In this document: piece by piece, positions 14,117 to 54,003 of the stretch | Numbering within the stretch: the first letter of the stretch is position 1 | Layout of the letters: every line of letters starts with the position of its first letter | Source: an uncultured Gammaproteobacteria bacterium | Lineage (GTDB): Bacteria > Pseudomonadota > Gammaproteobacteria > Steroidobacterales > Steroidobacteraceae | DNA length: 64,000 bases | NCBI GenBank assembly: GCA_963726665.1 | Contig: CAVSDW010000012.1 | Location: forward strand, 323,690 to 387,689 | Reading direction: 5' to 3' | Translations under genes and position numbers: made by a program | Notes under the pieces: generated by a model | Database searches by the model: none | What the model saw: the letters and a program-made list of their open reading frames with translations, nothing else | Told to the model about the DNA's origin: nothing

Positions 14117-15919
14117 TCAGCCCAGGCGGACGATGTCCTCCTGGGCCACGGACCGCTCGCGATGCATCAGGATCCACTGCGCATGCTCCTCGAGCGCCGC
14201 ATCGCCCAGCGCCTTCAAGGTCCCGCGTCGCTTCGCGTCGTCGTCGGCTTCGTCGATGCGGCGCCTGGCGTTGTAGAAGATCCGGCCCATGAACTCGAAC
14301 TGCTTGATGAGTTCGGCCTCGGCCGTGGCCTTGGCATAAGACTGCCGCACGCCCACCGCGAGCAGCACGCACCCCATGACGTATACGAGCGGTGAACGCA
14401 CGACTTCGGGCACGCCGGCGCCGACGAACATCAGCACCGCCAGCGTCGCGGTACTGGCCCAGATTCCCGCGCGCCCGATGCGGCTGGTCAGGGCGCGCTT
14501 GCGCACCCGCTCGGCGGTCCTGCGCAGGAAGTACCCGAGCTGCCCGGATCGTTCGTCGCCGATCCACTCGTCCACTGCGAACCGGAGCCCCGCCGGGTCC
14601 GCGCCCTTGCGTGCGTCGTACTCCGTGCCCGCCACGCGCATCACGTTGCGGATCCAGCCGAGCTCAGGGTCCTGCATCTGCAGGAAGTTGTCGTGGGCGA
14701 ACTTGGTGAGGCTGCCGCTCGTCACGCCGGCCGCGGCCCAGTAGAACTGGACCCGAAGTCCCTCGGCCAGCGTGCGGTAGTCGAGGTACTTCCGGTGCCA
14801 CGCGCCCTTTCCCGCCAGTCGATTGATGCCGGTCGCAGCCAGCATGAGCCCCAGCACGAAGAACAGGAACAGTCTCGTCGTGTTGAAATCCGTGTAGGAC
14901 ATGTAGGCGAGGCCGGTCAGGAATACGCAGGTGTGGCTCACCCGCAGGGTCAGCAGGAAGCGCTTCTGGAAGTGGACCGCGAGCCAGTCTGCAGCGCAGA
15001 ACACGCGGTTGATGTCGGAGAGCCCCGCCGGCAGGCTCGCGGCCTGCGCATCCGTGAGCAGCGGATAGCACCCTTGCTCGATCTCGCCCGAGTGCAGCGC
15101 CGCATCGCGGCCGAACTCGCTCGACCGCTCGAACACGCGCCGGTAGCGCGCCGGCATTTTGTCGGTACGCGGGTTGTCCTCGTCGGTCGTGAACCATGTG
15201 ACCGCGAGCGGCTCGAAACCCTCGGCGGGCGCGCCGTCGGGCCGATCGCGCGAACAGACGATGTGATACACGAGGTCGCTCTCGTCGTCGGTGAGCGCGA
15301 GGCGGCTGGCGGAACTCTGGCCAGCGTAGCCCGGCATCACGTCGCGGTGATGGAAATGCACGACCTGGCTCGTGCCACCGACCTGCGCGGACGGCTTGCC
15401 GTCCCACAGCGCGAGGAGGATGTGACAGTGCGCGCAGAGAAAGACGCCGCACTGCGCGTACTGGGCCTGGCGATTCACCTGCGACCCGTCGGCCGGCACG
15501 ACTCCGGCGGACGCGACCAGCGACAACTCGAACACGTCGGCCGCAGCGGCGCACAGTCGATCGAATTCGGCACGCGATCCTGGCGTGGCGAAATCCTGGG
15601 CGTAGAAATCCCTGGGCATCGGAAGCACCGCCACCAGCGGTATGCCGATGTCGAGCGCCTCCTCGGCGACCAGCCGGTCGGCGCCTTCGGCCAGCGCGGA
15701 CATCATCATGATCGCGCGGTCCGGATAGGCGTCTCGCAGCCCCACGATGAGGTCCCTGACGCGCGCGCGTATCGCGGGAATTTCAGCCGGCAGCAGGTCG
15801 CGGTGCCCGGTGGCGGCCACGACCAGCGGCACTGCGAACACCGCTCTCGCACCGGCGCCCCGCGTCCCCGACCAGGGATCGAAGCTCGTCGCGGCCGTTT
15901 GATCACCGTTGGCAGTCAT
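14117..15919 (-). CDS. SLOG-like (YpsA/DprA-type) domain protein fused to two 2-TM (SLATT-like) modules; function unknown
   Basis: 600 aa. N-terminal residues 27-195: VFAVPLVVAATGHRDL...IMMMSALAEGADRLVAEEALDIGIPLVAVLPMPRDFY...HILLALWDGKPSAQVGGTSQVV, the pattern seen in YpsA/DprA/LOG Rossmannoid folds. Hydrophobic hairpins sit at about aa 328-368 (CVFLTGLAYMSY / LFLFFVLGLMLAATGI) and aa 485-524 (GIWASTATLAVLMFVGAGV / LVYVMGCVLLAVGV). Each hairpin is followed by a basic amphipathic helix. Confidence 0.6.
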   Translation of the reverse strand: MTANGDQTAATSFDPWSGTRGAGARAVFAVPLVVAATGHRDLLPAEIPAIRARVRDLIVGLRDAYPDRAIMMMSALAEGADRLVAEEALDIGIPLVAVLPMPRDFYAQDFATPGSRAEFDRLCAAAADVFELSLVASAGVVPADGSQVNRQAQYAQCGVFLCAHCHILLALWDGKPSAQVGGTSQVVHFHHRDVMPGYAGQSSASRLALTDDESDLVYHIVCSRDRPDGAPAEGFEPLAVTWFTTDEDNPRTDKMPARYRRVFERSSEFGRDAALHSGEIEQGCYPLLTDAQAASLPAGLSDINRVFCAADWLAVHFQKRFLLTLRVSHTCVFLTGLAYMSYTDFNTTRLFLFFVLGLMLAATGINRLAGKGAWHRKYLDYRTLAEGLRVQFYWAAAGVTSGSLTKFAHDNFLQMQDPELGWIRNVMRVAGTEYDARKGADPAGLRFAVDEWIGDERSGQLGYFLRRTAERVRKRALTSRIGRAGIWASTATLAVLMFVGAGVPEVVRSPLVYVMGCVLLAVGVRQSYAKATAEAELIKQFEFMGRIFYNARRRIDEADDDAKRRGTLKALGDAALEEHAQWILMHRERSVAQEDIVRLG

Positions 15920-17393: not shown

Positions 17394-17408
17394 TTCAGCA
17401 GGGCTGAT

Positions 17409-18071
17409 TCAGTAGAGAGCGATCTCGGCCTCCGGCGCCGCGCTCACGGCGAGCGCGAGCGCGACCGCGAGCGCCGCGACGATGGCGAGCGCAAGGAGCG
17501 TCCGCGAGCCACCGGCAGCGTCCGCGGCCGGCACCTCGGCTGCGGGCTTGCGCCCGGTGATCATGGCGCGCAGCAGTGACCTGCCGGCCACACGCTCGTA
17601 CCAGGCGATGGCGAGCACGTGCAGCGCGACGAGCGCGAGCAGCAGGTTCGAATTGGCCGCGTGCAGGCCCGTGACCCGGTTGCTCGTTGCCGGCGCGATC
17701 CAGCCGTAGAAGGGACCGGCATTCACGATCTCGTCGTTGGCGAAAAGACCGGTCGCTGCCTGCACCAGCAGCACGGCCAGCATGGCGAGCACGCTCAGCG
17801 CGCCGAGCGGGTTGTGACCGGGCGTGGCGCGCAGAGGCCGGCTGCGCAGATAGGCAAGCACCGCACCCGGGCCACTCACGAACGACGTAAATCGCGCATG
17901 CCTCGTGCCCACGAAACCCCAGACGATGCGAAAGGTGACCAGCACCAGCGTCGCGTAGCCGAATGAGCGGTGCCAGCCGAACCAGCGCGTCCCCGCGTAG
18001 TGCGTAACCCACGCGCCCGCCACCGTCACCGCGAGCGCCCAGTGAGTCGCCCGCAGTGGCAGGTCCCACAC
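17409..18071 (-). CDS. Cytochrome b561 family protein (Ni/Fe-hydrogenase b-type cytochrome-like)
   Basis: WDLPLRATHWALAVTVAGAWVTHY......HRSFGYATLVLVTFRIVWGF.G..HARF, with four TM helices and conserved His pairs. It is convergent with cytochrome c'. Confidence 0.8.
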   Translation of the reverse strand: MWDLPLRATHWALAVTVAGAWVTHYAGTRWFGWHRSFGYATLVLVTFRIVWGFVGTRHARFTSFVSGPGAVLAYLRSRPLRATPGHNPLGALSVLAMLAVLLVQAATGLFANDEIVNAGPFYGWIAPATSNRVTGLHAANSNLLLALVALHVLAIAWYERVAGRSLLRAMITGRKPAAEVPAADAAGGSRTLLALAIVAALAVALALAVSAAPEAEIALY

Positions 18072-18240
18072 CAGCCGCGTCGTCGGCGCCGTTGCCGCTG
18101 CCTGCCGCCGTTACATGCGTCGTCATCCGGTCTCCATCCGCCCGCCTGCAGTCCGGCAATTCTATCAACGCCTGCGTGACTCGCTCCGCGGCGTGCATTA
18201 GTGTTTCCTCAGTCCAAGCTCGCCCGCCACGATTCCACAC

Positions 18241-18360
18241 GTGCCCCAACTGGACCCGGTCATCTGCTTTTTCGTGCTGGGAGTGCTCGCTGGCGTGGCG
18301 CGTGCCGACCTGCGGCTGCCCGCCGCGATCTACGAGTTCGTCTCGCCGGGCAAGTTCTGA
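18241..18360 (+). pseudogene. 5' stub (39 codons) of a sodium-dependent bicarbonate transport family (SbtA-like) permease
   Basis: GTG..PQLDPVICFFVLGVLAGVARADLRLPAAIYEFVS resembles the conserved N-terminus of this permease family (..LDPVILFF.LG..AGL..S.LRLP.AIYE.LS), then runs into PGKF-stop. The TGA overlaps the RDD gene ATG at 18360. Confidence 0.45.
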
Positions 18361-18798
18361 TGCCCGCCGGCCTGCTGCGCCGCCTCGGCGCATTGCTATA
18401 CGACACGCTGCTGCTCGCCGCGGTGCTCATGATCGCGACTGCGCTTTTCCTGCCCATGACCGGCGGCCAGGCGATCACCAGCGCCTCGGGGCCGCTGCTC
18501 GCAATGGGCCTACCGCGGCGTGATCGCCGGCCTGGTGGTGCTGTTCTACGGCGCGTTCTGGACGCGCCGCGGACAGACTCTCGGCATGGCGTCGTGGCGC
18601 CTGCGGATAGAGCGCGAAGACGGGGGCACCCTCACCTGGGGCGACACGCTGCGCCGGCTGGCGGCTGCGGTGTTGTCCCTGGTGCCCGCCGGGCTCGGAT
18701 GGGCCTGGATCCTCGTCGACCCCGGCAAGCGCGCATGGCACGATCGCCTGTCGCGAACCAGGGTGGTCGTCGTGCCGAAGTCACCGGGCCGGGCCTGA
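18360..18798 (+). pseudogene. RDD family membrane protein, split by one frameshift near 18505-18512
   Basis: MPAGLLRRLGALLYDTLLLAAVLMIATALFLPMTGGQAITSASGPLLAMG (frame of ORF 18201) continues as YRGVIAGLVVLFYGAFWTRRGQTLGMASWRLRIEREDG...AWHDRLSRTRVV (ORF 18520..18798). An RDD gene next to lptG is conserved synteny. Confidence 0.7.
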
Positions 18799-27142: not shown

Positions 27143-28129
27143 ATGCGCGACACGATCCGACGCCTGCGCGCCGGCCTGGACGAGCGCATGGGCGCGTGGA
27201 TCAAGCGTCGCCAGGGCCTGGACCACGACCCCGTGGTGCTGCAGCGTGGGCGCATCTACATCCTGCCGACGCGCCTCGGCGCGGCCTACGCGGGGATGGT
27301 CGTGGCGATGGTTGCGGGCGGCCTGAACTACAGCAACAACCTCGCTCTCGGCCTCGCATTCCTGCTGGCGAGCCTCGGGTTCGTCGCCATGCACCACTGC
27401 CACGGCACGCTCGCGGGGCTCGAACTGCGCCTGCTCGCGACGCTGCCCGCATTCGCCGGACAGGCGGTGCGATTCCGTCTGCTGCTCGAGAACAGCTCGC
27501 GCGCTCCGCGGCCACGAATCGAGGTGTCCGCGGGCAAGGGCACGCCGCAGGTTGCCGACGTTGCGCCGACGGGCACGGAAACGTCCGAAATCGCGCTCGT
27601 CGCCGAGCGACGCGGCCGCGTGCGGCTCGATCGCGTCGTGCTGGCGACACGCCATCCGCTCGGGCTCTTTCGCGCGTGGGCCGTCGTGCACCCGGACTAC
27701 TCCGCCATTGCCTGGCCGCGGCCGGCGGAACGGGGCCGACCGCCGCCCGGCGTCGAAACCGACACCGGCGGCGCCCAGGACCGCGCCAAGGGAGAGGAGG
27801 ATTTCACGGGCCTCCGGTCCTACCAGCCGGGGGACCCGCTGCGTCGCATCGCGTGGAAGGCCTACGCGCGCGGCCATGGGCTGCACACCAAGCAGTACGC
27901 CGGCACCGACGTCGTCTCGCACGTGTTCGACTGGGACAGCCTGCCGGGCCTCGACGTCGAGGCCCGGCTCTCGCAACTCTGCCGTTGGGTACTCGATGCC
28001 CACTCGAGCGGAGAGGCCTGCGGCCTGCGACTGCCCGGGGTCGCGATCGAGGCGAACATCGGCACGGCGCACCTGCAGCGATGCCTCGATGCGCTCGCGC
28101 TGTACGATCATGGCGGCGCCGATGCGTGA
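27143..28129 (+). CDS. DUF58 domain-containing protein
   Basis: Two N-terminal TM helices, then EEDFTGLRSYQPGDPLRRIAWKAYARG..L.TKQY, typical of DUF58. The MoxR-DUF58 pairing is typical. Confidence 0.85.
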   Translation: MRDTIRRLRAGLDERMGAWIKRRQGLDHDPVVLQRGRIYILPTRLGAAYAGMVVAMVAGGLNYSNNLALGLAFLLASLGFVAMHHCHGTLAGLELRLLATLPAFAGQAVRFRLLLENSSRAPRPRIEVSAGKGTPQVADVAPTGTETSEIALVAERRGRVRLDRVVLATRHPLGLFRAWAVVHPDYSAIAWPRPAERGRPPPGVETDTGGAQDRAKGEEDFTGLRSYQPGDPLRRIAWKAYARGHGLHTKQYAGTDVVSHVFDWDSLPGLDVEARLSQLCRWVLDAHSSGEACGLRLPGVAIEANIGTAHLQRCLDALALYDHGGADA

Positions 28130-30077
28130 GCAGGCCCCCGTCGGACTGCGCGGACTCGACGGCGTGCTCGCTGCACTCGCCGTCGCGGTCGCGGCGAACT
28201 TCGCGAACCTGCCGGCCTGGGTGCTGCTGCTTCTCGTCGCCGCCACCGCGTGGCGCTGGGCCGCGGACCGGCGCGGCCTGGCACTACCGCCGCGCTGGCT
28301 GCGCATCGTGGCCGCGGTCTCGGGACTCGTTGTCGTGCTCGTGGCCTACCGGACCGTCAACGGCATCGAGGCAGGAACCGCATTTCTCGTGCTCATGGCC
28401 GCGGTGAAGCTGCTCGAGACACGCGCGCCGCGCGACCTCACGGTGCTGGTCTTCATCGCCTGGTTCCTGCTGTACGCCGCGCTGCTGCGCGACCAGCGGC
28501 TGCAGCTGCTGCCCTGGCTCCTGGCCGGGACGCTGCTCGCGACAGCGGCGTTGCTGCGCGTGCACGCGGGTGCCGCCGGTGATTCCTGGCGCGGCGTCTT
28601 GCGACGGGCGACCGTGCTCATGCTGCAGGCACTGCCGCTGGCATTGGCGCTCTTCCTGCTCTTTCCCCGGCTGCCCGGCCCGTTCTGGGGCCTTGCGGTC
28701 TCGAACTCGGCGCGCACGGGATTGTCGGACGAAATGACGCCGGGCGACGTCTCGGACCTGAGCGTCTCGGGAGAGCCGGCCTTCCGGGTCCGCTTCGCCG
28801 CCGGGCTTCCGCCGCCGGTGCAGCGCTACTGGCGCGGGCCGGTGCTGCACGAATTCGACGGGCGGAGCTGGCGGCGCCCGCGCGGACAGGCCTTCCCGGC
28901 GCAGGAGGTGACCTACTCGGGTGCGCCGGTCGACTACCAGATCACGCTCGAGCCGCACGACCGAAACTGGATCCTCGCGCTCGACATGCCGGGCGGGTGG
29001 CCAGAGCAGGAGGCCTACCGGTCCTTCGACTTCACGCTCCTGTCCCCTCGCCCGCTCACGGACGTCGCATCCTTCCGCCTGCGCTCGTACCCGGGCTACC
29101 GCGCCGGGACGGAGCTGCCGCAGTCCCTGCGCAACAAGGACACGCAACTGCCGGCATCCGGAAACCCGCGCTCGATTGCGCTTGGCCGGACGCTTCGCGC
29201 GCAATACGTCGAACCGTCCAGAATCGCCCGCGCAATGCTGCGGCTGTTCCGCAATCAGCCGTTCGTGTACACGCTGCAGCCACCCCAGCTCGGGGAGAAC
29301 GCAGTCGACGAGTTCCTGTTCACGACGCGCAAGGGTTTCTGCGAGCACTACGCCTCGGCGTTCACGCTGGTGATGCGGGCAGCAGGAGTGCCCGCACGAG
29401 TGGTCACCGGCTACCAGGGCGGCGAGTTCAACCCGATCGGCGGTTACCTGCTGGTGCGCCAGTCGGACGCGCATGCATGGTCGGAGATCTGGCTGGACGA
29501 TCGCGGCTGGGTTCGCATGGACCCGACGGCAGCGGTCGCGCCGGAGCGCATCGAGCGCGGCCTCGTGAACTCCGTGGGCGCCGACGAACCCGCGCCAGGA
29601 CGGCTGCGGCAGGAAAGCGCACTCTGGCTGCAGGTCACACTGACCTGGGACACGGTCAACGACTTCTGGAACGAGCGGGTCGTGCGCTTCAACGCCGCAC
29701 GGCAGTTCGACCTGCTCGAGCGGCTGGGTTTCGACGAGCCCGACTGGCGCACGCTGGGACTCGGGCTCGCAGCGAGCCTCGCCGCGTTCTTCGTCGCGCT
29801 CTCGACCTACCTCGGGTGGAAGCATCGCGCGCCCGAGCGCGACTGGCCGGCGAGGCTCCACGCCGAGACCGCCCGTCGCCTGCACCGGCGCGGCCTCGTG
29901 CCCGGGCGCACCGAAGGGCCCATCGACTTCCTCGACCGGGCAGCCGCGTCGTGCCCGGACCTCGCCGCGGACATCGCGCGGATACGCGACCTCTATTCCG
30001 GCCTGCGCTACGGGCCACGCCCGGGTCCAGGCGACCTGAGCCGGCTCAAGCACCTGGTGAACCGTCTGCGTCCCTGA
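28110..30077 (+). CDS. Transglutaminase-like membrane protein (TgpA-type: DUF3488 N-terminal TM region + transglutaminase core)
   Basis: Multi-TM N-terminus. Catalytic core GFCEHYASAFTLVMRAAGVPARVVTGYQGGE.....YLLVRQSDAHAWSEIWLDDRGWVRMDPT (Cys-His-Asp). Start at ATG 28110 or 28122, overlapping the end of the DUF58 gene. Confidence 0.88.
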   Translation: MAAPMREQAPVGLRGLDGVLAALAVAVAANFANLPAWVLLLLVAATAWRWAADRRGLALPPRWLRIVAAVSGLVVVLVAYRTVNGIEAGTAFLVLMAAVKLLETRAPRDLTVLVFIAWFLLYAALLRDQRLQLLPWLLAGTLLATAALLRVHAGAAGDSWRGVLRRATVLMLQALPLALALFLLFPRLPGPFWGLAVSNSARTGLSDEMTPGDVSDLSVSGEPAFRVRFAAGLPPPVQRYWRGPVLHEFDGRSWRRPRGQAFPAQEVTYSGAPVDYQITLEPHDRNWILALDMPGGWPEQEAYRSFDFTLLSPRPLTDVASFRLRSYPGYRAGTELPQSLRNKDTQLPASGNPRSIALGRTLRAQYVEPSRIARAMLRLFRNQPFVYTLQPPQLGENAVDEFLFTTRKGFCEHYASAFTLVMRAAGVPARVVTGYQGGEFNPIGGYLLVRQSDAHAWSEIWLDDRGWVRMDPTAAVAPERIERGLVNSVGADEPAPGRLRQESALWLQVTLTWDTVNDFWNERVVRFNAARQFDLLERLGFDEPDWRTLGLGLAASLAAFFVALSTYLGWKHRAPERDWPARLHAETARRLHRRGLVPGRTEGPIDFLDRAAASCPDLAADIARIRDLYSGLRYGPRPGPGDLSRLKHLVNRLRP

Positions 30078-45895: not shown

Positions 45896-46987
45896 TCAGG
45901 TTTCCTCGACGGTGATTTTCGGTGCCGCTGCCGCGGCGGTGTCTGCGACGGAGAGGCGCGCGGCCGTGCGGCGCGCCATTTCGAGGTAGGCGCGGCCGAG
46001 CGGTCCATCCGGTTCCGCGACGACGGTCGGGCAGCCGCCGTCGGTCTGCTCGCGGATGCGGATGTCGAGCGGCAGGCTGGCGAGCAGTGGTACGCCGTAC
46101 TGCTCGGCCATGCTGCGCCCGCCCCCGCTGCCGAAGACGGGCTCCTCGTGGCCGCAGTTCGAGCAGATGTGGGTGCCCATGTTCTCCACGATGCCGAGCA
46201 CCGGCACCGAGACCTTCTGGAACATCCGCAGGCCCTTGCGGGCGTCGAGGAGGGCGATGTCCTGCGGCGTGGTGACCACCACGGCGCCGCTCAGTGGCAC
46301 GCGCTGGGCGAGCGTGAGCTGGATGTCGCCGGTGCCCGGGGGCATGTCGACGATGAGGTAGTCGAGTTCACCCCAGTTCGTCTCGGAGAGGAGCTGGGTC
46401 AGCGCCTGGGTCACCATCGGCCCGCGCCACACCATCGGCTGCTCCTCCTCGACCAGGAAGCCGATGGACATGACCTTGACCCCGTGGGCCTCGAGCGGCT
46501 CCATGCGCCGGCCGTCCGCAGAGGTCGGGTGCGCCCCGGAGAGCCCCATCATGCGCGGCTGGCTCGGGCCGTAGATGTCCGCGTCGAGAAGGCCGACCCG
46601 GCCGCCGTCGAGCGCCAGCGCCAGCGCGAGGTTGACCGCGGTCGTGGACTTGCCGACCCCGCCCTTGCCGGACGCGACGGCGATGACGTTGGAAATGCCC
46701 GGCAACGGGGGCCGGCTGCCGTCACCCGCCCGAGCCGCGACCTTCCAGCCAACCGTCACATCGGCCGGGCCGATCCCTGGCCGATCGGCCAGCAGCCCGG
46801 CGATCCGGTCCTGCAGGACCGCGGCGCCACGGGCGAGCGGAAACCCCAGCTCGACCTCGACCCGGACCCGTCCACCCTCTAATCGGACGGACTTCACAGC
46901 TTTGGCCTCGGTTAGCGGCATCCCGAGGTGGGGTTCGACATAATTCCCGACCACAAGGCGGGCTTCGCGTACGCGATCGTCTGTCAT
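45896..46987 (-). CDS. apbC: Iron-sulfur cluster carrier protein ApbC/Mrp
   Basis: [24 protein letters not shown]...[13 protein letters not shown]; [12 protein letters not shown]; ENM....C..CGH. ATG at 46987; the upstream part of the 554-aa ORF is spurious. Confidence 0.95.
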
Positions 46988-47201
46988 GCGGATGGCCAGG
47001 TCAGTGGGAGTACGGCATGCGCCGTGAGAGCAGGATTGTAGCGGAATCCGGGCGACGGATTGGCGCCGTCGGGGGGTCGCGGCCACCCGGCGGCTGCGTG
47101 GCATACTGGGCGAGGTCGGTGCGCCCTGCGCCCGGCCGCCCCAATTTGACTTAGTCACCAGCCCAGGACGAGGACCAGACCCGGATCCATCGAACAGCGC
47201 C

Positions 47202-49622
47202 ATGAGCTTCTTCACCAACATGAAGGCCGACCGCCTGATCGCCGACATCAAGGCGGCGGGCGACGGAACCGGCGCCGACGCGGACAAGGCACTGGACAGG
47301 CTTGGCAAGCTCGGGCCTGCGGCGATCCCACGCATCATCGACGCACTGTCGAACGCCGACCGGCAGGAGACCGAGGCCTTCGTCCGAGTGCTGTCGGCCA
47401 TGATCGACAACAAGTCCCTCGCACAGGTGGTCACCGCGCTCACGGATGCCAACCCCCGCACCTCGGCCGCAATCGTCGCCGCCCTGTCGGCAGGCCGGGA
47501 GTACAACCCGCAGCTCCTGCTGCCCCTGCTCGACGACCCGAAGGCACCGCGCGGCCCCATCGTGAGCGTCCTGGCCGCGCAGAAGTCGCGCCTGCCGGCG
47601 CGCGACCTGCTGAGCCGCGCCTACAACCAGGAGGCGACCGAGAAAGCCGCGCTGTTCCGCATCATCGGCGAGATCGCCGACGTGAGCCTGGTGCCGGAAC
47701 TGCTGAGCAGGCTCGAGGGCAAGGACCCGATCGCGCGCACGCACATCATCAGCATCGTGTCGCGATTCAACCGCCCGGACGTGGCACAGGCGCTGCAGGC
47801 GCAGCTCAAGGACACGAACAAGTTCATCCGCCAGGCTGTGCTGAACGCGCTGGCGCGGCTCGACGGCAACGTGGACCCGGCGGTCCTCTGCGACCTGCTG
47901 CGCGACCCTGACGTCGAGACCCAGCAGAAGGCGATCGACGCCGTGGTGCGCTCCAACCACCCGGACACGATGAAATACCTGGTGAACGTGCTCAAGGACG
48001 AGAGCGAGGGCGCGCGCCGGGCCGCCGTGGAAGTCCTGAACGAGATCGGCACGACGCAGCACATCAAGTTCCTGCTGCAGTCCATCAAGGACGACGACTG
48101 GTGGGTACGCAGTCGCGCCGCGGATGCGCTCGCCAAGATCGGCGGGCCCCGGGTGATCGAGGCCTCCCTCGAGCTGATCAGGGACCAGGACGAAGACGTG
48201 CGCCGCGCGGCCATCGAGATCCTGAACCAGACCAAGGACGAGCGGGCCGTGAGCCACCTGATCGAAGCCACGCACGACTCCGACTGGTGGGTACGCGAGC
48301 GCGCCGTGGACGCGCTCGGCGAGATCGGCAGCCGGACTGCGCTGCCGGCCCTGCTCGGGATGCTGGACGCCGTCGAGAACCGCTCGCTGCCCACCGTCGT
48401 GAGGGCGATCGGCAAGCTCGGAGACTCCTCGCACGTGGTGCGGCTGCTTCCGCTGCTCGACAATCCCTCGAAGGAGGCACGGCTCGAGGTCATCGCCGCG
48501 CTCACGCGCCTCGCCGACGACAACTCGGCCGACACAGTGCGGGTGAAGCTCGAGGACGTCGGCGCGCTCATGGTGGACCCCACGGTGAGCCACGCGGCCC
48601 TGCGTGCGGTCGAAGACATCGCCAAGCGCTTCGCGAGCGGCGGCCCGGTGACCGCGCGCCAGGCCGGCACCGGCATGACCGAAAGCCGGCCCGTGCTCGG
48701 CCGGGTCCAGGGGGATGCGGGCCGCACGCTGCTCACGGACCGCGCGGACGTCGACACGATCGTGAAGAAGGCGCGCGAGCAGCAGCGCCTCGACGTCTCG
48801 ACCCTGAAGCCGGGCGACGTGCTCGAGGGCCGCTACAAGTTCGTGCGCAAGATCGGCAAGGGCGCCTTCGGCACCGTGCTCCTCATGGAGGACACGGTCG
48901 TCGAGGAGCAGTTGGTCCTCAAGTTCCTGAACCCGAACGTCTCGCAGGACGAGGAGATGATGAAACGGTTCGTGCACGAGCTGCGCTACTCGCGCAAGAT
49001 CACGCACCGCAACGTCATCCGCATCTACGACTTCCTGCACATCCGCGGCAACTACGCGATCTCGATGGAGTACTTCCCGTCGCACACTCTCGGCAACGAG
49101 GTGAACGACAAGCCGTTACCGCTCGCCAAGGCGGTCCGGTTCGCCATCGACATCGCGACCGGCATGACGGTCGCGCACCAGTCGGGCATCATCCACCGCG
49201 ACCTGAAGCCCGCCAACGTTCTCATCAACGAGGATGGCCTCGTCAAGGTCGTGGACTTCGGCGTGGCCGCGGCCCAGCACCAGGGCGACACCCAGCTCAC
49301 CAAGACCGGCTACGTGATCGGCTCGCCGAAATACATGGCACCGGAACAGATCCTCGGCAAGAAAGTGGACGAGCGCGCGGACATCTACAGCCTTGGCGTC
49401 ATGCTCTACGAAATGCTGACCGGCGAGCCGCCCTACCACCGCGGCGACCACATGGCGGTCATGTACCAGCACGTACAGGGCAAGGCGAAGCCGCCGATCG
49501 AGGTCAACGCCGGGATCCCGCCCGGCCTTTCGGAGATCGTCACGAAGGCGATGTCCGTGGACAAGGCGCGGCGATTCCAGAGCATGGAAGAGATGCGCGC
49601 CGCACTGGAGCGCTACCTGTGA
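47202..49622 (+). CDS. HEAT-repeat (PBS-lyase type) protein fused to a Hanks-type Ser/Thr protein kinase
   Basis: 806 aa. The N-terminal ~500 aa are repeated HEAT-like units (DDDWWVRSRAADALAKIGGPRVIE / DEDVRRAAIEILNQ / DSDWWVRERAVDALGEIGSRTALPALL). The C-terminal kinase has IGKGAFGTV (Gly loop), LVLKFL (Lys), HRDLKPANVL, DFG and GSPKYMAPE. Confidence 0.9.
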   Translation: MSFFTNMKADRLIADIKAAGDGTGADADKALDRLGKLGPAAIPRIIDALSNADRQETEAFVRVLSAMIDNKSLAQVVTALTDANPRTSAAIVAALSAGREYNPQLLLPLLDDPKAPRGPIVSVLAAQKSRLPARDLLSRAYNQEATEKAALFRIIGEIADVSLVPELLSRLEGKDPIARTHIISIVSRFNRPDVAQALQAQLKDTNKFIRQAVLNALARLDGNVDPAVLCDLLRDPDVETQQKAIDAVVRSNHPDTMKYLVNVLKDESEGARRAAVEVLNEIGTTQHIKFLLQSIKDDDWWVRSRAADALAKIGGPRVIEASLELIRDQDEDVRRAAIEILNQTKDERAVSHLIEATHDSDWWVRERAVDALGEIGSRTALPALLGMLDAVENRSLPTVVRAIGKLGDSSHVVRLLPLLDNPSKEARLEVIAALTRLADDNSADTVRVKLEDVGALMVDPTVSHAALRAVEDIAKRFASGGPVTARQAGTGMTESRPVLGRVQGDAGRTLLTDRADVDTIVKKAREQQRLDVSTLKPGDVLEGRYKFVRKIGKGAFGTVLLMEDTVVEEQLVLKFLNPNVSQDEEMMKRFVHELRYSRKITHRNVIRIYDFLHIRGNYAISMEYFPSHTLGNEVNDKPLPLAKAVRFAIDIATGMTVAHQSGIIHRDLKPANVLINEDGLVKVVDFGVAAAQHQGDTQLTKTGYVIGSPKYMAPEQILGKKVDERADIYSLGVMLYEMLTGEPPYHRGDHMAVMYQHVQGKAKPPIEVNAGIPPGLSEIVTKAMSVDKARRFQSMEEMRAALERYL

Positions 49623-49635
49623 GCAGGTTGACCCG

Positions 49636-50736
49636 ATGGCCCGGATAGACGCATTCCTGAAGCTCGGCGCGGCACAGGGCTGCTCCGACGTTCACCTCGC
49701 GGTCGGCGTGCCGCCGATGCTGCGCATGAACGGCGAGCTGATGCCGATCAAGTTCCGCAACCTCGCCGAGGCGGAACTCGAGGGCTACGTGACCGAGATC
49801 CTGAGCGGCTCCCAGAAGGAGCAGTTCAGCCAGGGGCACGACATCGATTTCTCCTACGTGTCGGGGGACGGCGCCCGCTTCCGGGTGAACGTATTCCGCA
49901 AGGATACGGGCGTGGGCGCGGTATTCCGCACCATCCCGACCGACGTGCCGACCATCGAATCGCTCAATCTGCCGGCGGTGGTGACCGGGTTCTGCGATTA
50001 CCACCAGGGCATGGTGCTGGTGACCGGTTCCACGGGAACCGGCAAGTCGACGACGCTGGCCGCGATGATCGACCTGCTGAACCGCACCCGGCGGCTCAAC
50101 ATCGTCAGCCTCGAGGACCCGATCGAGTTCGTCCACCGCAGCAAGCTCTCGCAGGTGATCCAGCGCGAGCTGCACACCCACCTGCCCTCCTTCGCCGAGG
50201 GCGTGCGGGCGGCGATGCGCGAGGACCCCGACGTGATCCTGGTCGGCGAGCTGCGCGACGCCGACACGGTGCGCTGGGCGATGACGGCTGCGGAAACCGG
50301 GCATCTCGTGCTCGGCACTCTGCACACGACCAGTGCGGTGAAGACCATCGACCGCATGGTGGACGCGCTGCCGGCAGAGGAGCGCGAACAGACCAAGAGC
50401 TTCCTCTCGCAGAGCCTGATCGGCGTGGTCACCCAGGTTCTGGTGCGAACGCCCGATTTGCGCGGGCGGCGCGCCATCTGCGAGGTGATGGTGATGAATC
50501 GTGCGATCGGCAAGCTCATCATGACCGACCAGACGCACATGCTTCCCTCGCAGCTGCAGACCGGGAAGGAACTCGGCATGCACACGATGGACCAGGCGCT
50601 GCTCGCCGCGGTCCAGGCGCGCGAGGTCGACCCGGAGGACGCCTTCACCTACGCACAGGACAAGAAGCTCTTCACCCGCTACATCCCCGAGGGGACGGCC
50701 ATCCTCAAGGCCGACGTCACGCAGGGCATTGCATGA
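49636..50736 (+). CDS. PilT-family hexameric ATPase, divergent paralogue
   Basis: SDVHL..G.PPM.R..G; Walker A GSTGTGKSTT; LEDPIEF; Walker B REDPDVILVGELRD; His box ETGHLVLGTLHT. The PilT AIRNLIRE motif is replaced by AIGKLIMT. Starts 13 nt after the kinase stop. Confidence 0.85.
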   Translation: MARIDAFLKLGAAQGCSDVHLAVGVPPMLRMNGELMPIKFRNLAEAELEGYVTEILSGSQKEQFSQGHDIDFSYVSGDGARFRVNVFRKDTGVGAVFRTIPTDVPTIESLNLPAVVTGFCDYHQGMVLVTGSTGTGKSTTLAAMIDLLNRTRRLNIVSLEDPIEFVHRSKLSQVIQRELHTHLPSFAEGVRAAMREDPDVILVGELRDADTVRWAMTAAETGHLVLGTLHTTSAVKTIDRMVDALPAEEREQTKSFLSQSLIGVVTQVLVRTPDLRGRRAICEVMVMNRAIGKLIMTDQTHMLPSQLQTGKELGMHTMDQALLAAVQAREVDPEDAFTYAQDKKLFTRYIPEGTAILKADVTQGIA

Positions 50737-51842
50737 GCACTGGAGAAATGGACCCGGCCGCGGCCGCACCGGAGGCGCCTTCCTTCCGCATCGACGAGTT
50801 CCTGCGCGAGGTGCTGGCGAAGAACGGCTCCGACCTGCACTTCGTGGCCGGCGACCCGCCGCGCATCCGCCTCTTCGGCGAACTCCAGTCCCTCCGCACC
50901 GAACCGCTTGGACAGGATTTCGTGCGAGACCTGCTCGCCGAGATCCTGACACGCCGCGCGATGCAGCGGCTCGAGGAAAGGGACGGCGCCGACTTCGCCT
51001 ACACGATCCCGGGCGTGTCCCGCTTCCGCGTAAACGTCTTCCGCCACATCGGCGGACTGGGCGCCGTGTTCCGCGCCATTCCGTCGAAGGCGCTGACGCT
51101 GGAGCAGCTCAACATGCCGGAGGCCGTCCGCAGCCTCTGCCGCACCAACAACGGCCTGATCCTGGTCACCGGCAAGACTGGCTCCGGCAAGTCCACGACA
51201 CTCGCGGCGATGATCGACGACATCAATGCGCGGGTGAAGGGCCACATTCTCACGATCGAGGACCCGATCGAGTTCGTTCACCCGCGGCGCAACTGCCTGG
51301 TGAGCCAGCGCGAGGTCGGCATTCACAGCCCGGGATTCGCCGAGGCGCTGCACTCCGCGCTCCGCGAGGACCCCGACGTGGTGCTGGTCGGCGAGCTGCG
51401 TGACTTCGAAACCATGAGCATCGCGGTCACGGCCGCGGAAATGGGCATCCTCGTGATGGGTACGCTGCATACGAACGGCGCCGCCGCGACCGTCGACCGC
51501 ATCGTGAACGCATTCCCGTCGGACAAGCAGGCGCACGTACGCACGATGCTCTCCACGTCGCTGCGAGGCGTGGTCTCGCAGCAGCTCATCCAGCGCTCGG
51601 ACAAGCGCGGCCGAGTCGCGGCACTCGAGGTGCTGATCAACACCCCGGCGGTGTCCAACCTGATCCGCCAGGGCAAGCTCGACCAGCTCGAGAACGCCAT
51701 GCAGAGCGGCGCCCAGTTCGGGATGCGCACGATGGACTCGGCGATCCAGGAACTCCTGGACAAGAGCCTGATCACCGGCCGCATGGCCTACGACAAGTCC
51801 ATCAACAAGCAGCGTTTCGAGCAGTTCAAGGGCGTCGGCTGA
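50733..51842 (+). CDS. PilT-family hexameric ATPase (PilT-like)
   Basis: SDLHFVAGDPPRIR..G; GKTGSGKSTT; IEDPIEF; REDPDVVLVGELRD; MGILVMGTLHT; AVSNLIRQGK (close to AIRNLIRE). ATGA overlap with the preceding gene. Confidence 0.88.
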   Translation: MSTGEMDPAAAAPEAPSFRIDEFLREVLAKNGSDLHFVAGDPPRIRLFGELQSLRTEPLGQDFVRDLLAEILTRRAMQRLEERDGADFAYTIPGVSRFRVNVFRHIGGLGAVFRAIPSKALTLEQLNMPEAVRSLCRTNNGLILVTGKTGSGKSTTLAAMIDDINARVKGHILTIEDPIEFVHPRRNCLVSQREVGIHSPGFAEALHSALREDPDVVLVGELRDFETMSIAVTAAEMGILVMGTLHTNGAAATVDRIVNAFPSDKQAHVRTMLSTSLRGVVSQQLIQRSDKRGRVAALEVLINTPAVSNLIRQGKLDQLENAMQSGAQFGMRTMDSAIQELLDKSLITGRMAYDKSINKQRFEQFKGVG

Positions 51843-51927
51843 ACCCGGCGGGACGGGCACGCGCCGCGCGACGGGGCGCACCCGGCGCGTGGCATAATTC
51901 CGCGCCCTGCCCGCCTGCCGACGCCCC

Positions 51928-54003
51928 ATGACCACACCGAACCGCCGCACCATCCTCGTCACCTGCGCGCTGCCCTACGCGAACGGCGCGCCGCACCTCG
52001 GCCACATGGTCGAGCACGTGCAGACGGACATCTGGGTGCGCTTCCAGCGACTGCGCGGCCACGACTGCCTGTTCGTGTGCGCGAGCGACGCCCACGGCAC
52101 GCCGATCATGCTGAAGGCCCGCCAGGAGGGCATCACGCCCGAGGAACTGATCGAGCGCGTCGGCGCCGAGCAGCGCCGCGATTTCGGCGGGTTCGACATC
52201 TCCTACGACAACTTCCACACGACGCATTCGCCCGAAAGCCGCGAAGTCACGGAGGCCGTCTACCGCCGACTGGTCGAGGGCGGCCACATCCGTCGCGAGA
52301 CGATCCGGCAGGCCTACGACGAGCAGGCGAAGATGTTCCTGCCGGATCGCTACGTGCGCGGCACCTGCCCGCGCTGCGGCGCGCAGGACCAGTACGGGGA
52401 CAGCTGCGAGAACTGCGGGGCGACCTACACACCGGCCGACCTCAAGGACGCGGTGTCGGTCGTGAGCGGCACGGCCCCGATCCAGCGCGATTCCGAGCAC
52501 CTCTTCTTCCGGCTCGGCGACTTCGAGCCGATGCTGCGCGGATGGACCGGCGCCGCGGGCCGCCTGCAGCCGGCCGTGGCTGCCAAGCTCGGCGAATGGT
52601 TCTCGGCGGGCCTCCGCGACTGGGACATCTCCCGGGACGAGCCGTATTTCGGCTTCGAGATTCCCGGCGAGAAGGGCAAGTACTTCTACGTCTGGCTCGA
52701 TGCGCCGATCGGCTACCTCGGCAGCTTCCTGCAGTATTGCCGCCGCACGGGACTCGACTTCGACCGCTACTGGAAGACGGGGAGCGACGCCGAGGTCTAC
52801 CACTTCATCGGCAAGGACATCGTCTACTTCCACACGCTGTTCTGGCCCGCCGTGCTGCACGGTGCCGGATACCGGACGCCGACGGCGGTGTTCGTGCACG
52901 GGTTCCTGACCGTGAACGGCCAGAAGATGTCGAAGTCGCGCGGAACCTTCATCACCGCGCGCAGCTGGCTCGAGCACCTGCCCGCGGAGTACCTGCGCTA
53001 TTTCTTCGCATCGCGGCTCGGCGACGGCGTCGACGACCTCGACCTGAATCTCGACGACTTCGTCGCCAAGGTGAACTCCGACATCGTCGGCAAGCTGGTG
53101 AACATCGCGAGCCGCTGCGCCGGCTTCATCGCGCGAGGCTCGGCGGGTCGGCTCGCGGATCGCCTGCCCGACCCCGTGCTCTACGATTCGGTCGTCGCCG
53201 CAGCGGACAGCATCGCGGATGCCTACGAGGGTCGCGACCTCGCGCGCGTCGTTCGCGAGGTGATGCTGCTCACGGACCGCGCCAACCTGTACATCGACCA
53301 GCAGAAGCCGTGGCTGATGGCAAAGGACCCGGCGCGGGCCGCGGAGGTCCAGGGTGTGTGCACCGAGGGCCTGAACCTGTTCCGCGTGCTGGTGCTTTAC
53401 CTGAAGCCCATCATCCCGCGGCTCGCGGAGGGCGCGGAGCGCTTCCTCGGGCTGCCGGCACAGTCCTGGGACGACGTCGCCCGGCCACTGCTCGGCACCG
53501 CGATCGCGACCTACGAACCGCTGGCGACCCGGGTCGATCCCGCGGCCATCAAGTCGCTGCTCGCCGCGTCGGTGGAAAATCTCAAGGTGACCGGTGTGCC
53601 TGGCGAAGCCGCATCGGGGACAGCGACGCAGGCCGCTGCGACCGCGCCGGCGGCCGCAATCGCGGTCCCGACGTTGCCGAACGTGTCCATCGAAGACTTC
53701 GGCCGCATCGACCTCAGGGTGGCCAGGATCGATGCCGCGGACCTCGTGGAAGGCGCCGACAAGCTCCTCCGACTCACGCTCGACCTCGGCGGCGACCGGC
53801 GCACGGTGTTTGCCGGGATCCGTCAAGCCTATGCGCCGGAGCAGCTGGTCGGACGACTCACGGTGGTCGTGGCTAACCTCGAGCCGCGCAAGATGCGCTT
53901 CGGGGTCTCGGAGGGCATGGTGCTCGCGGCCGGACCCGGCGGAAAAGATATTTTCCTGCTCACCCCCGACGCTGGCGCCGAACCCGGCATGAAAGTGAAG
54001 TGA
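51928..54003 (+). CDS. metG: Methionine--tRNA ligase MetG
   Basis: [21 protein letters not shown] (HIGH), zinc knuckles CPRCGA...[13 protein letters not shown] (KMSKS) and a C-terminal tRNA-binding (EMAP-like) domain. Confidence 0.98.

What the first reader, a model, noticed from the sequence alone, without database searches (positions are those of the whole stretch)
47202..51842. Three-gene operon (HEAT-repeat Hanks kinase + two PilT-family ATPases) located between apbC(mrp) and metG
The kinase stop and the first ATPase start are 13 nt apart, and the two ATPase genes overlap by ATGA, so all three are very likely co-transcribed. In E. coli, mrp(apbC) and metG are immediate divergent neighbours. 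Here 4.9 kb separates them, consisting of exactly this cassette, so it looks like an insertion into a conserved junction. PilT/PilU pairs often sit away from other pilus genes, but I do not recognise translational linkage to an 806-aa protein with ~500 aa of PBS-lyase-type HEAT repeats and an apparently active eukaryotic-like kinase (GxGxFG, VxK, HRDLKPxN, DFG, APE all present) as a described arrangement. It suggests phosphorylation control, or HEAT-scaffold docking, of a hexameric secretion-type ATPase pair. That role need not be in pilus retraction.
Basis: partly seen in the sequence, partly recalled or inferred. Interest (0 to 1): 0.7.

Follow-up and report, generated by a model that had tools for sequence, protein, structure and literature searches.

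The report
Kinase-linked pair of PilT-like motors
A protein kinase with a long helical-repeat arm is followed by two pilus-motor-like ATPases, and this trio recurs in many distantly related bacteria, often with phosphorylation partners, so it looks like an undescribed phosphorylation-controlled motor module.

Summary
The window holds an 806-aa HEAT-repeat Hanks kinase (47202-49622). Two PilT-family ATPases follow: A1 at 49636-50736 after a 13-nt gap, and A2 at 50733-51842 with an ATGA overlap. The three genes lie between apbC and metG.

The organism belongs to Steroidobacteraceae. The order dcd-apbC / kinase-A1-A2-metG is kept in essentially every Steroidobacterales genome sampled: 70/71 loci have A1 and 65/66 have both. 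It is therefore an old, vertically inherited block, not a recent insertion.

The same kinase-A1-A2 core recurs with unrelated flanks in Acidihalobacter, a Ca. Eisenbacteria MAG and many metagenomic lineages (55/55 with A1, 47/47 with both). There it usually sits with an FHA protein, often with a PP2C phosphatase or HD-type proteins.

A1 and A2 form separate clades with matching branching. A1 keeps every catalytic residue but lacks PilT's AIRNLIRE motif. A2 keeps that motif but has lost the first His-box histidine.

Acidihalobacter also has an ordinary pilT-pilU locus, so there the kinase-linked pair is extra.

Best reading: a Ser/Thr-phosphorylation module controlling a dedicated PilT-like motor pair. 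The biochemistry is untested, and I found no published description.

The parts
45896..46987 (-). apbC/mrp (363 aa), the left flank. It is transcribed divergently from the kinase.
   Evidence: The ORF is and the true ATG at 46985-46987 is read. Relatives have 361-363-aa orthologues with ParA/CbiA/FeS_assembly_P domains. The gene is kept next to the kinase in 80 Steroidobacterales loci.
46988..47201 (.). A 214-bp divergent control region with three motifs conserved among 13 relatives. GATTGTAGCGGAATC (47034-47048) reads as a TACAAT -10 for apbC on the minus strand. TGgCATACT (47099-47107) is an extended -10-like element facing the kinase. TGACTTAGTCA (47147-47157) is a perfect palindrome.
   Evidence: From the alignment of upstream regions. 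The consensus promoter scan found nothing because no -35 hexamer is present. Reading these motifs as promoter elements is inference.
47202..48635 (+). Kinase residues 1-478: an all-alpha HEAT/PBS-HEAT solenoid of about 30 helices, with two signature DxDWWVRxRA(A/I)DAL repeats.
   Evidence: Pfam HEAT_2 x6, HEAT and HEAT_PBS. The AlphaFold model has pLDDT mostly above 90. The closest solved sequences are the artificial alphaRep consensus HEAT proteins. The WW repeats are conserved across the family.
48639..48764 (+). Kinase residues 480-521: a disordered, Thr/Ser-containing linker between the solenoid and the kinase domain.
   Evidence: pLDDT is below 50 in the model, and conservation is low in alignment A3.
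48804..49622 (+). Kinase residues 535-806: a Hanks-type Ser/Thr kinase domain at the C-terminal end, predicted active, with no membrane segment or PASTA domain.
   Evidence: Pkinase E 5.6e-51. G554, K574, E593, H665-R666-D667, K669, N672, D685-F686-G687, T700 and P714-E715 are invariant in 36 family members. The fold matches PknB, PknA and Stk1 with TM-scores of 0.82-0.90.
49636..50736 (+). A1, the position-1 PilT-family ATPase (366 aa). It has a complete catalytic set, but the AIRNLIRE motif is degenerate (AIGKLIMT).
   Evidence: TIGR01420 409 bits against a cutoff of 319. The best solved match is P. aeruginosa PilT 3jvu, at 48% identity. The Walker A Lys, Asp-box Glu, Walker B Glu, H222 and H229 equivalents are invariant in 113 A1 sequences.
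50733..51842 (+). A2, the position-2 PilT-family ATPase (369 aa). It keeps an AIRNLIRE-like motif (AVSNLIRQGK), but the first His-box histidine is replaced (MGILV).
   Evidence: TIGR01420 438 bits. Identity is 51% to PaPilT and 43% to A1. The H222 equivalent is Ile, Val or Leu in 96 of 97 A2 sequences, while N/I/R/G/K of the AIRNLIRE region are kept.
51843..51927 (+). An 85-bp spacer before metG. It holds a GC-rich hairpin with no U-tract, then TGgCATAAT (51890-51898), an extended -10-like element 29 nt before the metG ATG.
   Evidence: The fold energy is -53 kcal/mol with z = -2.5; the sequence is. The consensus scan finds no terminator and Rfam has no match. Whether this marks the end of the transcription unit is inference.
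51928..54003 (+). metG (691 aa), the right flank.
   Evidence: The ORF is. The gene follows A2 in nearly all Steroidobacterales loci.

Best explanation
The three genes are the minimal core of a conserved, previously undescribed signalling-plus-motor module. It consists of a soluble Hanks Ser/Thr kinase, whose N-terminal HEAT solenoid serves as a protein-docking arm, and a dedicated, co-inherited pair of PilT-family hexameric ATPases.

**Shown**
- The kinase has every catalytic residue.
- A1 has every ATPase residue.
- A2 has an altered His box but a PilT-type AIRNLIRE surface motif.
- The three genes stay together in this order across very distant lineages.
- In most of those lineages an FHA phospho-threonine reader accompanies them. 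A PP2C eraser is found in a minority of loci (15 of 89).

**Inferred**
- The kinase docks on, or is brought to, the ATPase pair through the solenoid.
- It phosphorylates itself, an FHA adaptor, or an ATPase.
- This switches the pair's assembly, localisation or activity.
- A1 is the main ATP-burning ring. A2 is a specialised partner ring, by analogy with PilT and PilU.
- The output is most likely conditional type IV pilus retraction or a related type IV filament task.

In Steroidobacterales the module has been reduced to kinase plus two ATPases and fixed between apbC and metG. Any FHA or PP2C partners would be encoded elsewhere or absent.
For: **Domains and motifs.**

**Conservation inside Steroidobacterales.** 70/71 loci have A1 and 65/66 have A1 plus A2, including the cultured Peristeroidobacter soli and Povalibacter uvarum.

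**Conservation outside Steroidobacterales.**
- 55/55 loci have A1 next to the kinase and 47/47 have A1 then A2, with unrelated flanks.
- 140 full-length kinases fall into 27 clusters at 60% identity, from loci of 35-74% GC.
- The gene directly upstream is an FHA protein (26/74) or a conserved 150-aa protein (43/74).
- After A2 come an FHA gene (18/40), a PP2C gene (4/40) or a convergent HD-type gene (9/40).
- The kinase-A1 gap is -1 to 19 nt outside Steroidobacterales. The A1-A2 gap is at most 30 nt in 67/75 loci.

**Co-inheritance.** A1 and A2 form separate clades with the same internal branching.

**Paralogue status.**
- Acidihalobacter yilgarnensis carries the module between groEL and an ECF sigma factor gene.
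- The same species also has pilT-pilU beside yggS and proH (PMC9062700).
- A1 and A2 are only 48% and 51% identical to PaPilT. Neisseria PilT is 67% identical to PaPilT (PMC5065972, Table 3).

**Structure.** The model shows a solenoid, a 40-aa disordered linker and a PknB-like kinase domain.
Against: - There are no experimental data. Transcripts, kinase activity, substrates and phenotypes are all unknown.
- In the window and in all 80 Steroidobacterales loci there is no FHA, PP2C or HD-type gene within about 8 kb, so the phospho-relay is incomplete at this locus.
- Most Steroidobacteraceae have about 80-200 nt between the kinase and A1, which leaves room for a separate promoter.
- No type IV pilus gene lies near the module in any locus examined. 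The link to pili rests on homology alone.
- I could not check whether Steroidobacterales also have an ordinary pilT-pilU locus.
- No A1- or A2-specific conserved Ser/Thr stands out as a phospho-acceptor, apart from one A2 position, S191.
Confidence: 0.55

Rival explanations
1. A1 and A2 are simply this organism's ordinary PilT and PilU, the only type IVa pilus retraction motors. The kinase is a lineage-specific regulator placed next to them.
For: Both proteins pass the PilT/PilU family model and match P. aeruginosa PilT best among solved structures. Adjacent pilT-pilU pairs are the norm in Proteobacteria (PMC13584747, PMC6762196). Woeseiaceae, which GTDB places in the same order, are reported to carry twitching-motility genes (PMC12175321). 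I could not show that a second pilT exists in Steroidobacterales.
Against: - The orthologous pair in Acidihalobacter coexists with a separate pilT-pilU locus (PMC9062700).
- Both proteins score closer to PilT than to PilU, 267 and 239 bits to V. cholerae PilU against 345 and 319 to PilT. Neither is a PilU.
- Identity to PaPilT is 48-51%, which is low for a gammaproteobacterial orthologue (PMC5065972).
- A2 lacks a His-box histidine reported as required in PilT (PMC6762196).
- The gene order is reversed: the AIRNLIRE-bearing protein comes second.
Confidence: 0.17
2. The module is a self-contained machine that has nothing to do with pili. A phospho-regulated double-ring ATPase acts on some other substrate, such as protein or nucleic-acid translocation or remodelling.
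For: No pilus gene is ever adjacent. The pair has its own deep clades and an altered A2 active site. Partner genes are signalling proteins (FHA, PP2C, HD-type, EAL, GAF) rather than pilus parts. Other PilT paralogues have been proposed to have non-pilus roles, for example Geobacter PilT1 in the recA operon (PMC5065972).
Against: Retraction ATPase genes often lie away from other pilus genes. A2 keeps the PilT-specific AIRNLIRE-type motif. No alternative substrate or membrane platform gene is conserved in the neighbourhood.
Confidence: 0.2
3. It is an anti-phage defence system built around a kinase.
For: The kinase domain matches PADLOC models PD-T4-6, Mad6, PglW and Stk2.
Against: - The PADLOC hits cover only the generic kinase domain.
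- NCBIfam scores are far below cutoff: Mad6 162 against 460, PglW 109 against 990.
- The locus is a vertically inherited housekeeping region, not a variable island.
- No relatives occur on plasmids.
- There is no nuclease, methylase or other effector gene.
Confidence: 0.03
4. The adjacency has no functional meaning. The kinase and the ATPases are neighbours only through frozen synteny.
For: Within Steroidobacterales alone, synteny of the whole region (dcd, apbC, metG, rnf) is conserved too. Conservation inside that order therefore proves little by itself.
Against: The trio stays together when every flanking gene changes, across 27 kinase clusters at 60% identity and 35-74% GC. Outside Steroidobacterales the genes overlap or nearly abut.
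Confidence: 0.03

Closest known systems
PilT/PilU retraction ATPase pair of type IVa pili (P. aeruginosa, V. cholerae, Neisseria)
   Same: Two adjacent paralogous PilT-family genes. Both window proteins pass TIGR01420. One member carries the AIRNLIRE-type motif and the other does not, as in PilT versus PilU (PMC6762196).
   Different: Neither protein is PilU-like. The motif-bearing gene comes second, not first. A2 lacks the first His-box histidine. Identity to PaPilT is only 48-51%. The pair is always preceded by a HEAT kinase. Acidihalobacter has this pair in addition to pilT-pilU (PMC9062700).
Myxococcus xanthus MXAN_6705/MXAN_6706, adjacent non-canonical PilT paralogues
   Same: An adjacent pair of extra PilT paralogues, conserved across a whole order. 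Deleting one of them gives a partial defect in pilus-driven motility (PMC13584747).
   Different: No kinase link is reported. The neighbour MXAN_6704 is described as a GNAT acetyltransferase (PMC4048283). I could not test orthology to A1/A2.
Type VI secretion threonine-phosphorylation pathway PpkA / PppA / Fha1 (P. aeruginosa; from my own knowledge)
   Same: A Hanks kinase, an FHA reader and a PP2C eraser encoded beside an ATPase-driven nanomachine, switching it post-translationally. The same three signalling parts surround the A1/A2 pair in most non-Steroidobacterales loci.
   Different: There are no type VI genes. This kinase is soluble, with an N-terminal HEAT arm instead of a membrane-spanning sensor. 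The controlled ATPases belong to the PilT family, not ClpV. The window itself lacks FHA and PP2C.
Sulfolobus archaellum regulatory network (ArnA FHA, ArnB vWA, ArnC/ArnD kinases, PP2A)
   Same: Ser/Thr phosphorylation with an FHA protein controlling a type IV filament machine. PP2A's role in archaellum regulation is stated in bioRxiv 10.64898/2026.08.11.744115; the rest is from my own knowledge.
   Different: It is archaeal and acts mainly on expression of the archaellum operon. It involves no PilT-type ATPase pair and no HEAT kinase.
PknB/Stk1-type bacterial Hanks kinases
   Same: The kinase domain has the same fold and motifs (TM 0.82-0.90, about 33% identity).
   Different: The domain order is reversed, with the sensor or docking arm N-terminal and the kinase C-terminal. 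There is no membrane segment or PASTA repeat. The score is below the equivalog cutoff, 287 against 450.

Membership tests
PilT/PilU family type IVa pilus ATPase (TIGR01420) | Full-length match to the family model above the curated cutoff | tested here: met
   A1 scores 409.2 bits and A2 438.5 bits against a cutoff of 319.1.
PilT/PilU family type IVa pilus ATPase (TIGR01420) | Walker A, Asp box, atypical Walker B with catalytic Glu, and a His box with two histidines | tested here: inconclusive
   A1 has all of them (113/113). A2 has all except the first His-box histidine, which is Ile, Val or Leu in 96/97 sequences. PMC6762196 states that both histidines are required in PilT.
PilT proper (retraction motor) | Conserved C-terminal AIRNLIRE motif | tested here: inconclusive
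   A2 has AVSNLIRQ, with N, I and R conserved across the clade. A1 has AIGKLIMT, which is degenerate.
PilT proper (retraction motor) | Orthologue-level similarity to characterised proteobacterial PilT | tested here: not met
   A1 and A2 are 48% and 51% identical to PaPilT. Neisseria PilT is 67% identical to PaPilT (PMC5065972, Table 3).
PilT proper (retraction motor) | Powers pilus retraction; loss gives hyperpiliation and no twitching | not testable with these tools
   This needs genetics and microscopy.
PilU | Closer to PilU than to PilT; encoded immediately downstream of pilT | tested here: not met
   Both proteins score higher to PilT (319 and 345 bits) than to V. cholerae PilU (239 and 267 bits).
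Hanks-type Ser/Thr protein kinase (Pkinase PF00069) | Domain match above cutoff with an intact G-loop, VAIK Lys, alphaC Glu, HRD, DFG and APE | tested here: met
   173.9 bits against a cutoff of 31.7. All motifs are invariant in 36 family members. The fold is PknB-like.
PASTA kinase Stk1/PknB (NF033483) | Equivalog score, a membrane segment and PASTA repeats | tested here: not met
   287 bits against a cutoff of 450, and the match covers the kinase domain only. The model shows no membrane helix or PASTA domain.
Kinase / FHA / PP2C threonine-phosphorylation module (as in type VI secretion) | FHA reader and PP2C phosphatase encoded with the kinase | tested here: not met
   Absent from the window and from 80 Steroidobacterales loci. 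In other lineages an FHA gene occurs in 60/89 loci and a PP2C gene in 15/89. The family-level module meets this feature; the window copy does not.
Anti-phage kinase systems (PD-T4-6, MADS Mad6, BREX PglW) | Full-length match and presence of the system's partner genes | tested here: not met
   Hits cover the kinase domain only. NCBIfam scores are 162 against 460 and 109 against 990. No partner genes are present.
Phycobilin lyase / NblB HEAT proteins | Equivalog-level match | tested here: not met
   NblB 87.8 against 300, CpcE 70.6 against 330. Only the repeat type is shared.

The most novel reading that the evidence does not exclude
The HEAT-kinase / A1 / A2 core, with its FHA, PP2C and HD-type satellites, is a new, widely distributed class of phospho-switched double-ring PilT-family machine. 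It would have its own function, distinct from ordinary pilus retraction, with A2 as a catalytically altered regulatory ring and the HEAT arm as the adaptor that couples phosphorylation to motor assembly.
Probability: 0.25. Interest if true: 0.85.

Novelty: new variant of a known kind. Interest (0 to 1): 0.7.

Why it matters
PilT-family motors are among the strongest molecular motors known. How cells switch them on and off is only partly understood. Extra PilT paralogues are common, and most have no assigned role.

A kinase that has stayed attached to one specific pair of such motors across distant lineages and very different base compositions gives a concrete, testable regulatory principle: Ser/Thr phosphorylation, usually with an FHA reader and sometimes with a PP2C eraser. 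It also assigns a large set of 'HEAT repeat domain-containing protein' and 'PilT' annotations to a single module. At least 591 species-representative genomes matched the HEAT signature.

Cultured, sequenced hosts are available for experiments: Acidihalobacter, Povalibacter uvarum and Peristeroidobacter soli.

The complementary defects in the two ATPases suggest a division of labour that structural work on PilT and PilU could exploit. A1 has full chemistry without the PilT surface motif. A2 has the surface motif with altered chemistry.

Tried and rejected
**Consensus scans of the locus.** The promoter and terminator scan found nothing. Rfam at E <= 1 found nothing in 46800-52100.

**Defence-system reading.** PADLOC hits are generic kinase matches only, so I rejected it.

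**Recent insertion or mobile element.** Base composition is flat across the locus, synteny is order-wide, and there are no plasmid relatives. Rejected.

**Other copies in the window.** There is no second PilT or kinase paralogue. No FHA, PP2C or up150 homologue is present, and there are no pilus genes.

**Searches that did not help.**
- Protein searches with the kinase and with A1 were saturated by close relatives, so they gave no reach.

**Phospho-acceptor search.** I looked for Ser/Thr conserved specifically in A1 or A2. Only one A2 position (S191) emerged, which is not convincing.

**M. xanthus MXAN_6705/6706.** I asked whether this pair is kinase-linked. Its neighbour MXAN_6704 is a GNAT, so there is no support, but the other side was not checked.

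**The 150-aa upstream protein of other lineages.**
- Pfam gives only a weak, sub-threshold DUF6812 match.
- There is no PDB sequence match.
- The AlphaFold model is poor (pLDDT 65).
- Fold matches to Hfq/Sm are non-significant (E about 0.2).
- I considered a PilZ-like motif and dropped it, because the first Arg is not conserved.

**Literature.** Eight full-text searches found no paper describing a HEAT kinase linked to PilT-like ATPases.

**Not achieved.** I could not show whether Steroidobacterales genomes also carry an ordinary pilT-pilU locus.

Full report
**1. What is in the window**

Three same-strand ORFs sit at exactly the reported coordinates.

- **Kinase, 47202-49622, 806 aa.** Pfam gives six HEAT_2 stretches plus HEAT and HEAT_PBS over residues about 30-450, and a Pkinase domain at 545-796 (E 5.6e-51). 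GKGAFG, the VLK lysine, HRDLKP, DFG and APE are all present.
- **A1, 49636-50736, 366 aa, and A2, 50733-51842, 369 aa.** Both exceed the curated cutoff of NCBIfam TIGR01420 'PilT/PilU family type 4a pilus ATPase', at 409 and 438 bits against 319. Among solved structures both match P. aeruginosa PilT (3jvu) best. They are 43% identical to each other.

The 13-nt kinase-A1 gap and the ATGA overlap of A1 and A2 are real. apbC starts at 46987 on the minus strand, so the long ORF is an over-extension. metG starts at 51928, which leaves 4,940 bp between the two starts. In E. coli K-12, mrp and metG are adjacent and divergent, 131 bp apart.

The rest of the window is housekeeping: nnrD, queG, panB, pcnB, lptFG, pepA, valS, prfC, proS, purMN, dcd, rnf and lpdA. 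It has no pilus, FHA or PP2C genes and no further PilT or kinase copy. Base composition is flat across the locus.

**2. Host and conservation among relatives**

Close homologues of the kinase are named Steroidobacteraceae.

A scan of one genome per GTDB species with a HEAT-only alignment matched at least 591 places. The best 80 are all Steroidobacterales, and they include the cultured Peristeroidobacter soli JW-3, Povalibacter uvarum DSM 26723 and Steroidobacter.

In these loci the order dcd-apbC / kinase-A1-A2-metG is essentially invariant:

- 70/71 loci with enough downstream sequence have A1 next to the kinase.
- 65/66 have A1 then A2.
- The one exception, L029, has a broken kinase ORF but still has both ATPases.

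The cassette is therefore ancestral to the order. It is an insertion only in comparison with E. coli.

The tight kinase-A1 spacing (7-19 nt) is a feature of the window's close relatives. Most Steroidobacteraceae have about 80-200 nt there. A1-A2 spacing is at most 30 nt in 67/75 loci.

**3. The same trio far outside the order**

An exhaustive profile-free search of 1.84 billion cluster representatives found collinear relatives of about 800 aa down to about 30% identity.

Every relative examined at 36% identity or more has the two ATPases directly downstream, with unrelated flanking genes:

| Locus | Source |
|---|---|
| L004 | marine metagenome |
| L086/L087 | metagenome |
| L088/L089 | metagenome |
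| L090 | metagenome |
| L091 | complete genome of Acidihalobacter yilgarnensis, between groEL and an ECF sigma factor gene |
| L092 | Ca. Eisenbacteria MAG |
| L093 | metagenome |

Cluster names also include Ectothiorhodospira and Acidihalobacter prosperus. Two relatives at 35% identity or less (L005, L094) are stand-alone kinases with no PilT gene nearby.

A metagenome scan seeded with the most divergent trio-bearing branch added 80 loci. Custom HMM annotation of these, with the other loci from outside Steroidobacterales, gave the following:

- A1 lies next to the kinase in 55/55 loci.
- A1 then A2 follow in 47/47.
- Directly upstream is an FHA protein of about 200 aa (26/74) or a conserved protein of about 150 aa (43/74).
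- After A2 come an FHA gene (18/40), a PP2C gene (4/40) or a convergent HD-type gene (9/40).
- FHA-GAF-HD and FHA-EAL proteins also occur nearby.

The 140 full-length kinases fall into 44, 27 and 9 clusters at 70%, 60% and 50% identity. Their loci range from 35% to 74% GC. There are no plasmid-borne relatives.

**4. The two ATPases are a co-inherited, specialised pair**

In a neighbour-joining tree, position-1 and position-2 proteins form separate clades with the same internal branching order. PaPilT was the only outgroup, so the tree shows co-inheritance. It does not show where ordinary PilT would fall.

Over 113 distinct A1 and 97 distinct A2 sequences:

| Feature (PaPilT numbering) | A1 | A2 |
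|---|---|---|
| Walker A Lys, Asp-box Glu, Walker B Glu, R206, second His (H229) | invariant | invariant, except one Asp at the Walker B Glu |
| First His-box histidine (H222) | 113/113 | Ile, Val or Leu in 96/97 |
| AIRNLIRE region | degenerate | xNLIRxGK kept (N 85, I 97, R 97, G 97, K 87 of 97) |

PMC6762196 states that both His-box histidines are required in PilT. It also states that AIRNLIRE is a PilT hallmark absent from PilU.

Both proteins score closer to PilT than to PilU. They are only 48% and 51% identical to PaPilT, whereas Neisseria PilT is 67% identical (PMC5065972).

In Acidihalobacter a separate pilT-pilU pair lies beside yggS, yggT and proH (PMC9062700, Fig. 6). In that genus the kinase-linked pair is therefore additional. 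I could not test whether this is also true in Steroidobacterales.

**5. The kinase**

All catalytic residues and an activation-loop LT(K/R)(T/S)G are invariant or nearly so in 36 family members spanning 27-84% identity.

The AlphaFold model (pLDDT 87) has three parts:

- a 30-helix solenoid, residues 1-478;
- a disordered linker, residues 480-521;
- a kinase domain, residues 535-806.

The kinase domain superposes on PknB, PknA and Stk1 with TM-scores of 0.82-0.90. The central repeats are close to the PBS-HEAT consensus used for artificial alphaRep binders. They carry two family-specific DxDWWVRxRAxDAL signatures.

There is no membrane segment. From my own knowledge, placing the kinase at the C-terminal end is unusual for bacterial Hanks kinases.

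**6. Control regions (inference)**

Alignment of the apbC-kinase spacer in 13 relatives shows three conserved blocks:

- GATTGTAGCGGAATC, which reads as a TACAAT -10 for apbC on the minus strand;
- TGgCATACT, an extended -10-like element facing the kinase;
- the palindrome TGACTTAGTCA.

After A2 there is a GC-rich hairpin (-53 kcal/mol, z = -2.5). TGgCATAAT follows it, 29 nt before the metG ATG. This suggests that the trio and metG are separate transcription units. The consensus scan and Rfam found nothing.

**7. Interpretation**

The cross-lineage conservation makes a functional unit of kinase plus A1 plus A2 very likely. The recurring FHA, PP2C and HD-type satellites point to a phospho-threonine signalling module that controls the ATPase pair.

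The logic resembles two known systems. One is the type VI secretion PpkA/PppA/Fha1 pathway (my own knowledge). The other is the Sulfolobus Arn network, which controls the archaellum (partly supported by bioRxiv 10.64898/2026.08.11.744115).

The window's copy is the stripped-down core. Whether the output is conditional pilus retraction or something unrelated to pili is open. Extra paralogues can contribute to pilus motility, as with M. xanthus MXAN_6706, whose deletion gives a partial motility defect (PMC13584747).

Eight literature searches found no description of this arrangement.

**8. Verdict**

The mechanism is untested.
- Novelty: a new variant of a known kind, namely kinase/FHA/PP2C control of a secretion-type ATPase machine applied to a dedicated PilT-family pair through a HEAT-arm kinase.
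- Interest: 0.7.

Noticed in passing
L086 4346-4879, L088 5477-5938, L091 9521-9985 and 40 further loci (for example L127 8489-8947): A conserved protein of about 150 aa lies directly upstream of the HEAT kinase in 43/74 loci outside Steroidobacterales. Its invariant residues include W, HP-G, FYN, DG-S and NK-Y. It is absent from the window. It gives only a weak, sub-threshold DUF6812 match and has no PDB sequence match. The structure model is poor, and its C-terminal half weakly resembles an Sm/Hfq barrel (E about 0.2, not significant).
   Followed up: partly
window 47147-47157: A perfect palindrome, TGACTTAGTCA, lies about 45 nt upstream of the kinase ATG. TTGACTTAG is conserved in about 8 of 13 close relatives. 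It could be an operator site, but no regulator is identified.
   Followed up: partly
window 47099-47107 and 51890-51898: The same TGgCATAMT element, which looks like an extended -10, occurs upstream of the kinase and upstream of metG. The copy upstream of the kinase is conserved across relatives; the metG copy was read in the window only. It may be the usual promoter form in this high-GC lineage, which the standard two-hexamer scan misses.
   Followed up: partly
L005 3320-5716 and L094 8001-10391: The most distant full-length relatives of the kinase (31-35% identity) have no PilT genes nearby, and a ThiF-like gene lies upstream of each kinase. Their HEAT WW signatures are degraded. This looks like a branch of the family that left the module or never joined it.
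   Followed up: no
L066 10386-12106, L081, L078 and L085: A few Steroidobacterales genomes have extra DNA inside the cassette: 0.4-1.7 kb between the kinase and A1 (L066, L078, L081), or 1.7 kb between A2 and metG (L085). The content was not examined.
   Followed up: no
L003 (GCA_035456585.1, labelled Burkholderiales) and L055 (labelled Acidimicrobiaceae): These MAG contigs carry the full Steroidobacterales synteny (dcd-apbC / kinase-A1-A2-metG) at 54-67% HEAT-domain identity. Their taxonomic labels are probably binning or labelling errors.
   Followed up: no
window 14117-15919 (-) and 17395-18393 (-): Two long ORFs (600 and 332 aa) have no Pfam match at E <= 1e-5. The first has coding-like GC3 (0.87) over its whole length. 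In the second, the GC3 filter covers only part of the ORF (17409-18110, 0.86).
   Followed up: no
window 27552-30077 (+): A TgpA-type transglutaminase membrane protein (TgpA_N, Transglut_core and DUF4129 domains) lies in the housekeeping region. It is unrelated to the finding.
   Followed up: no
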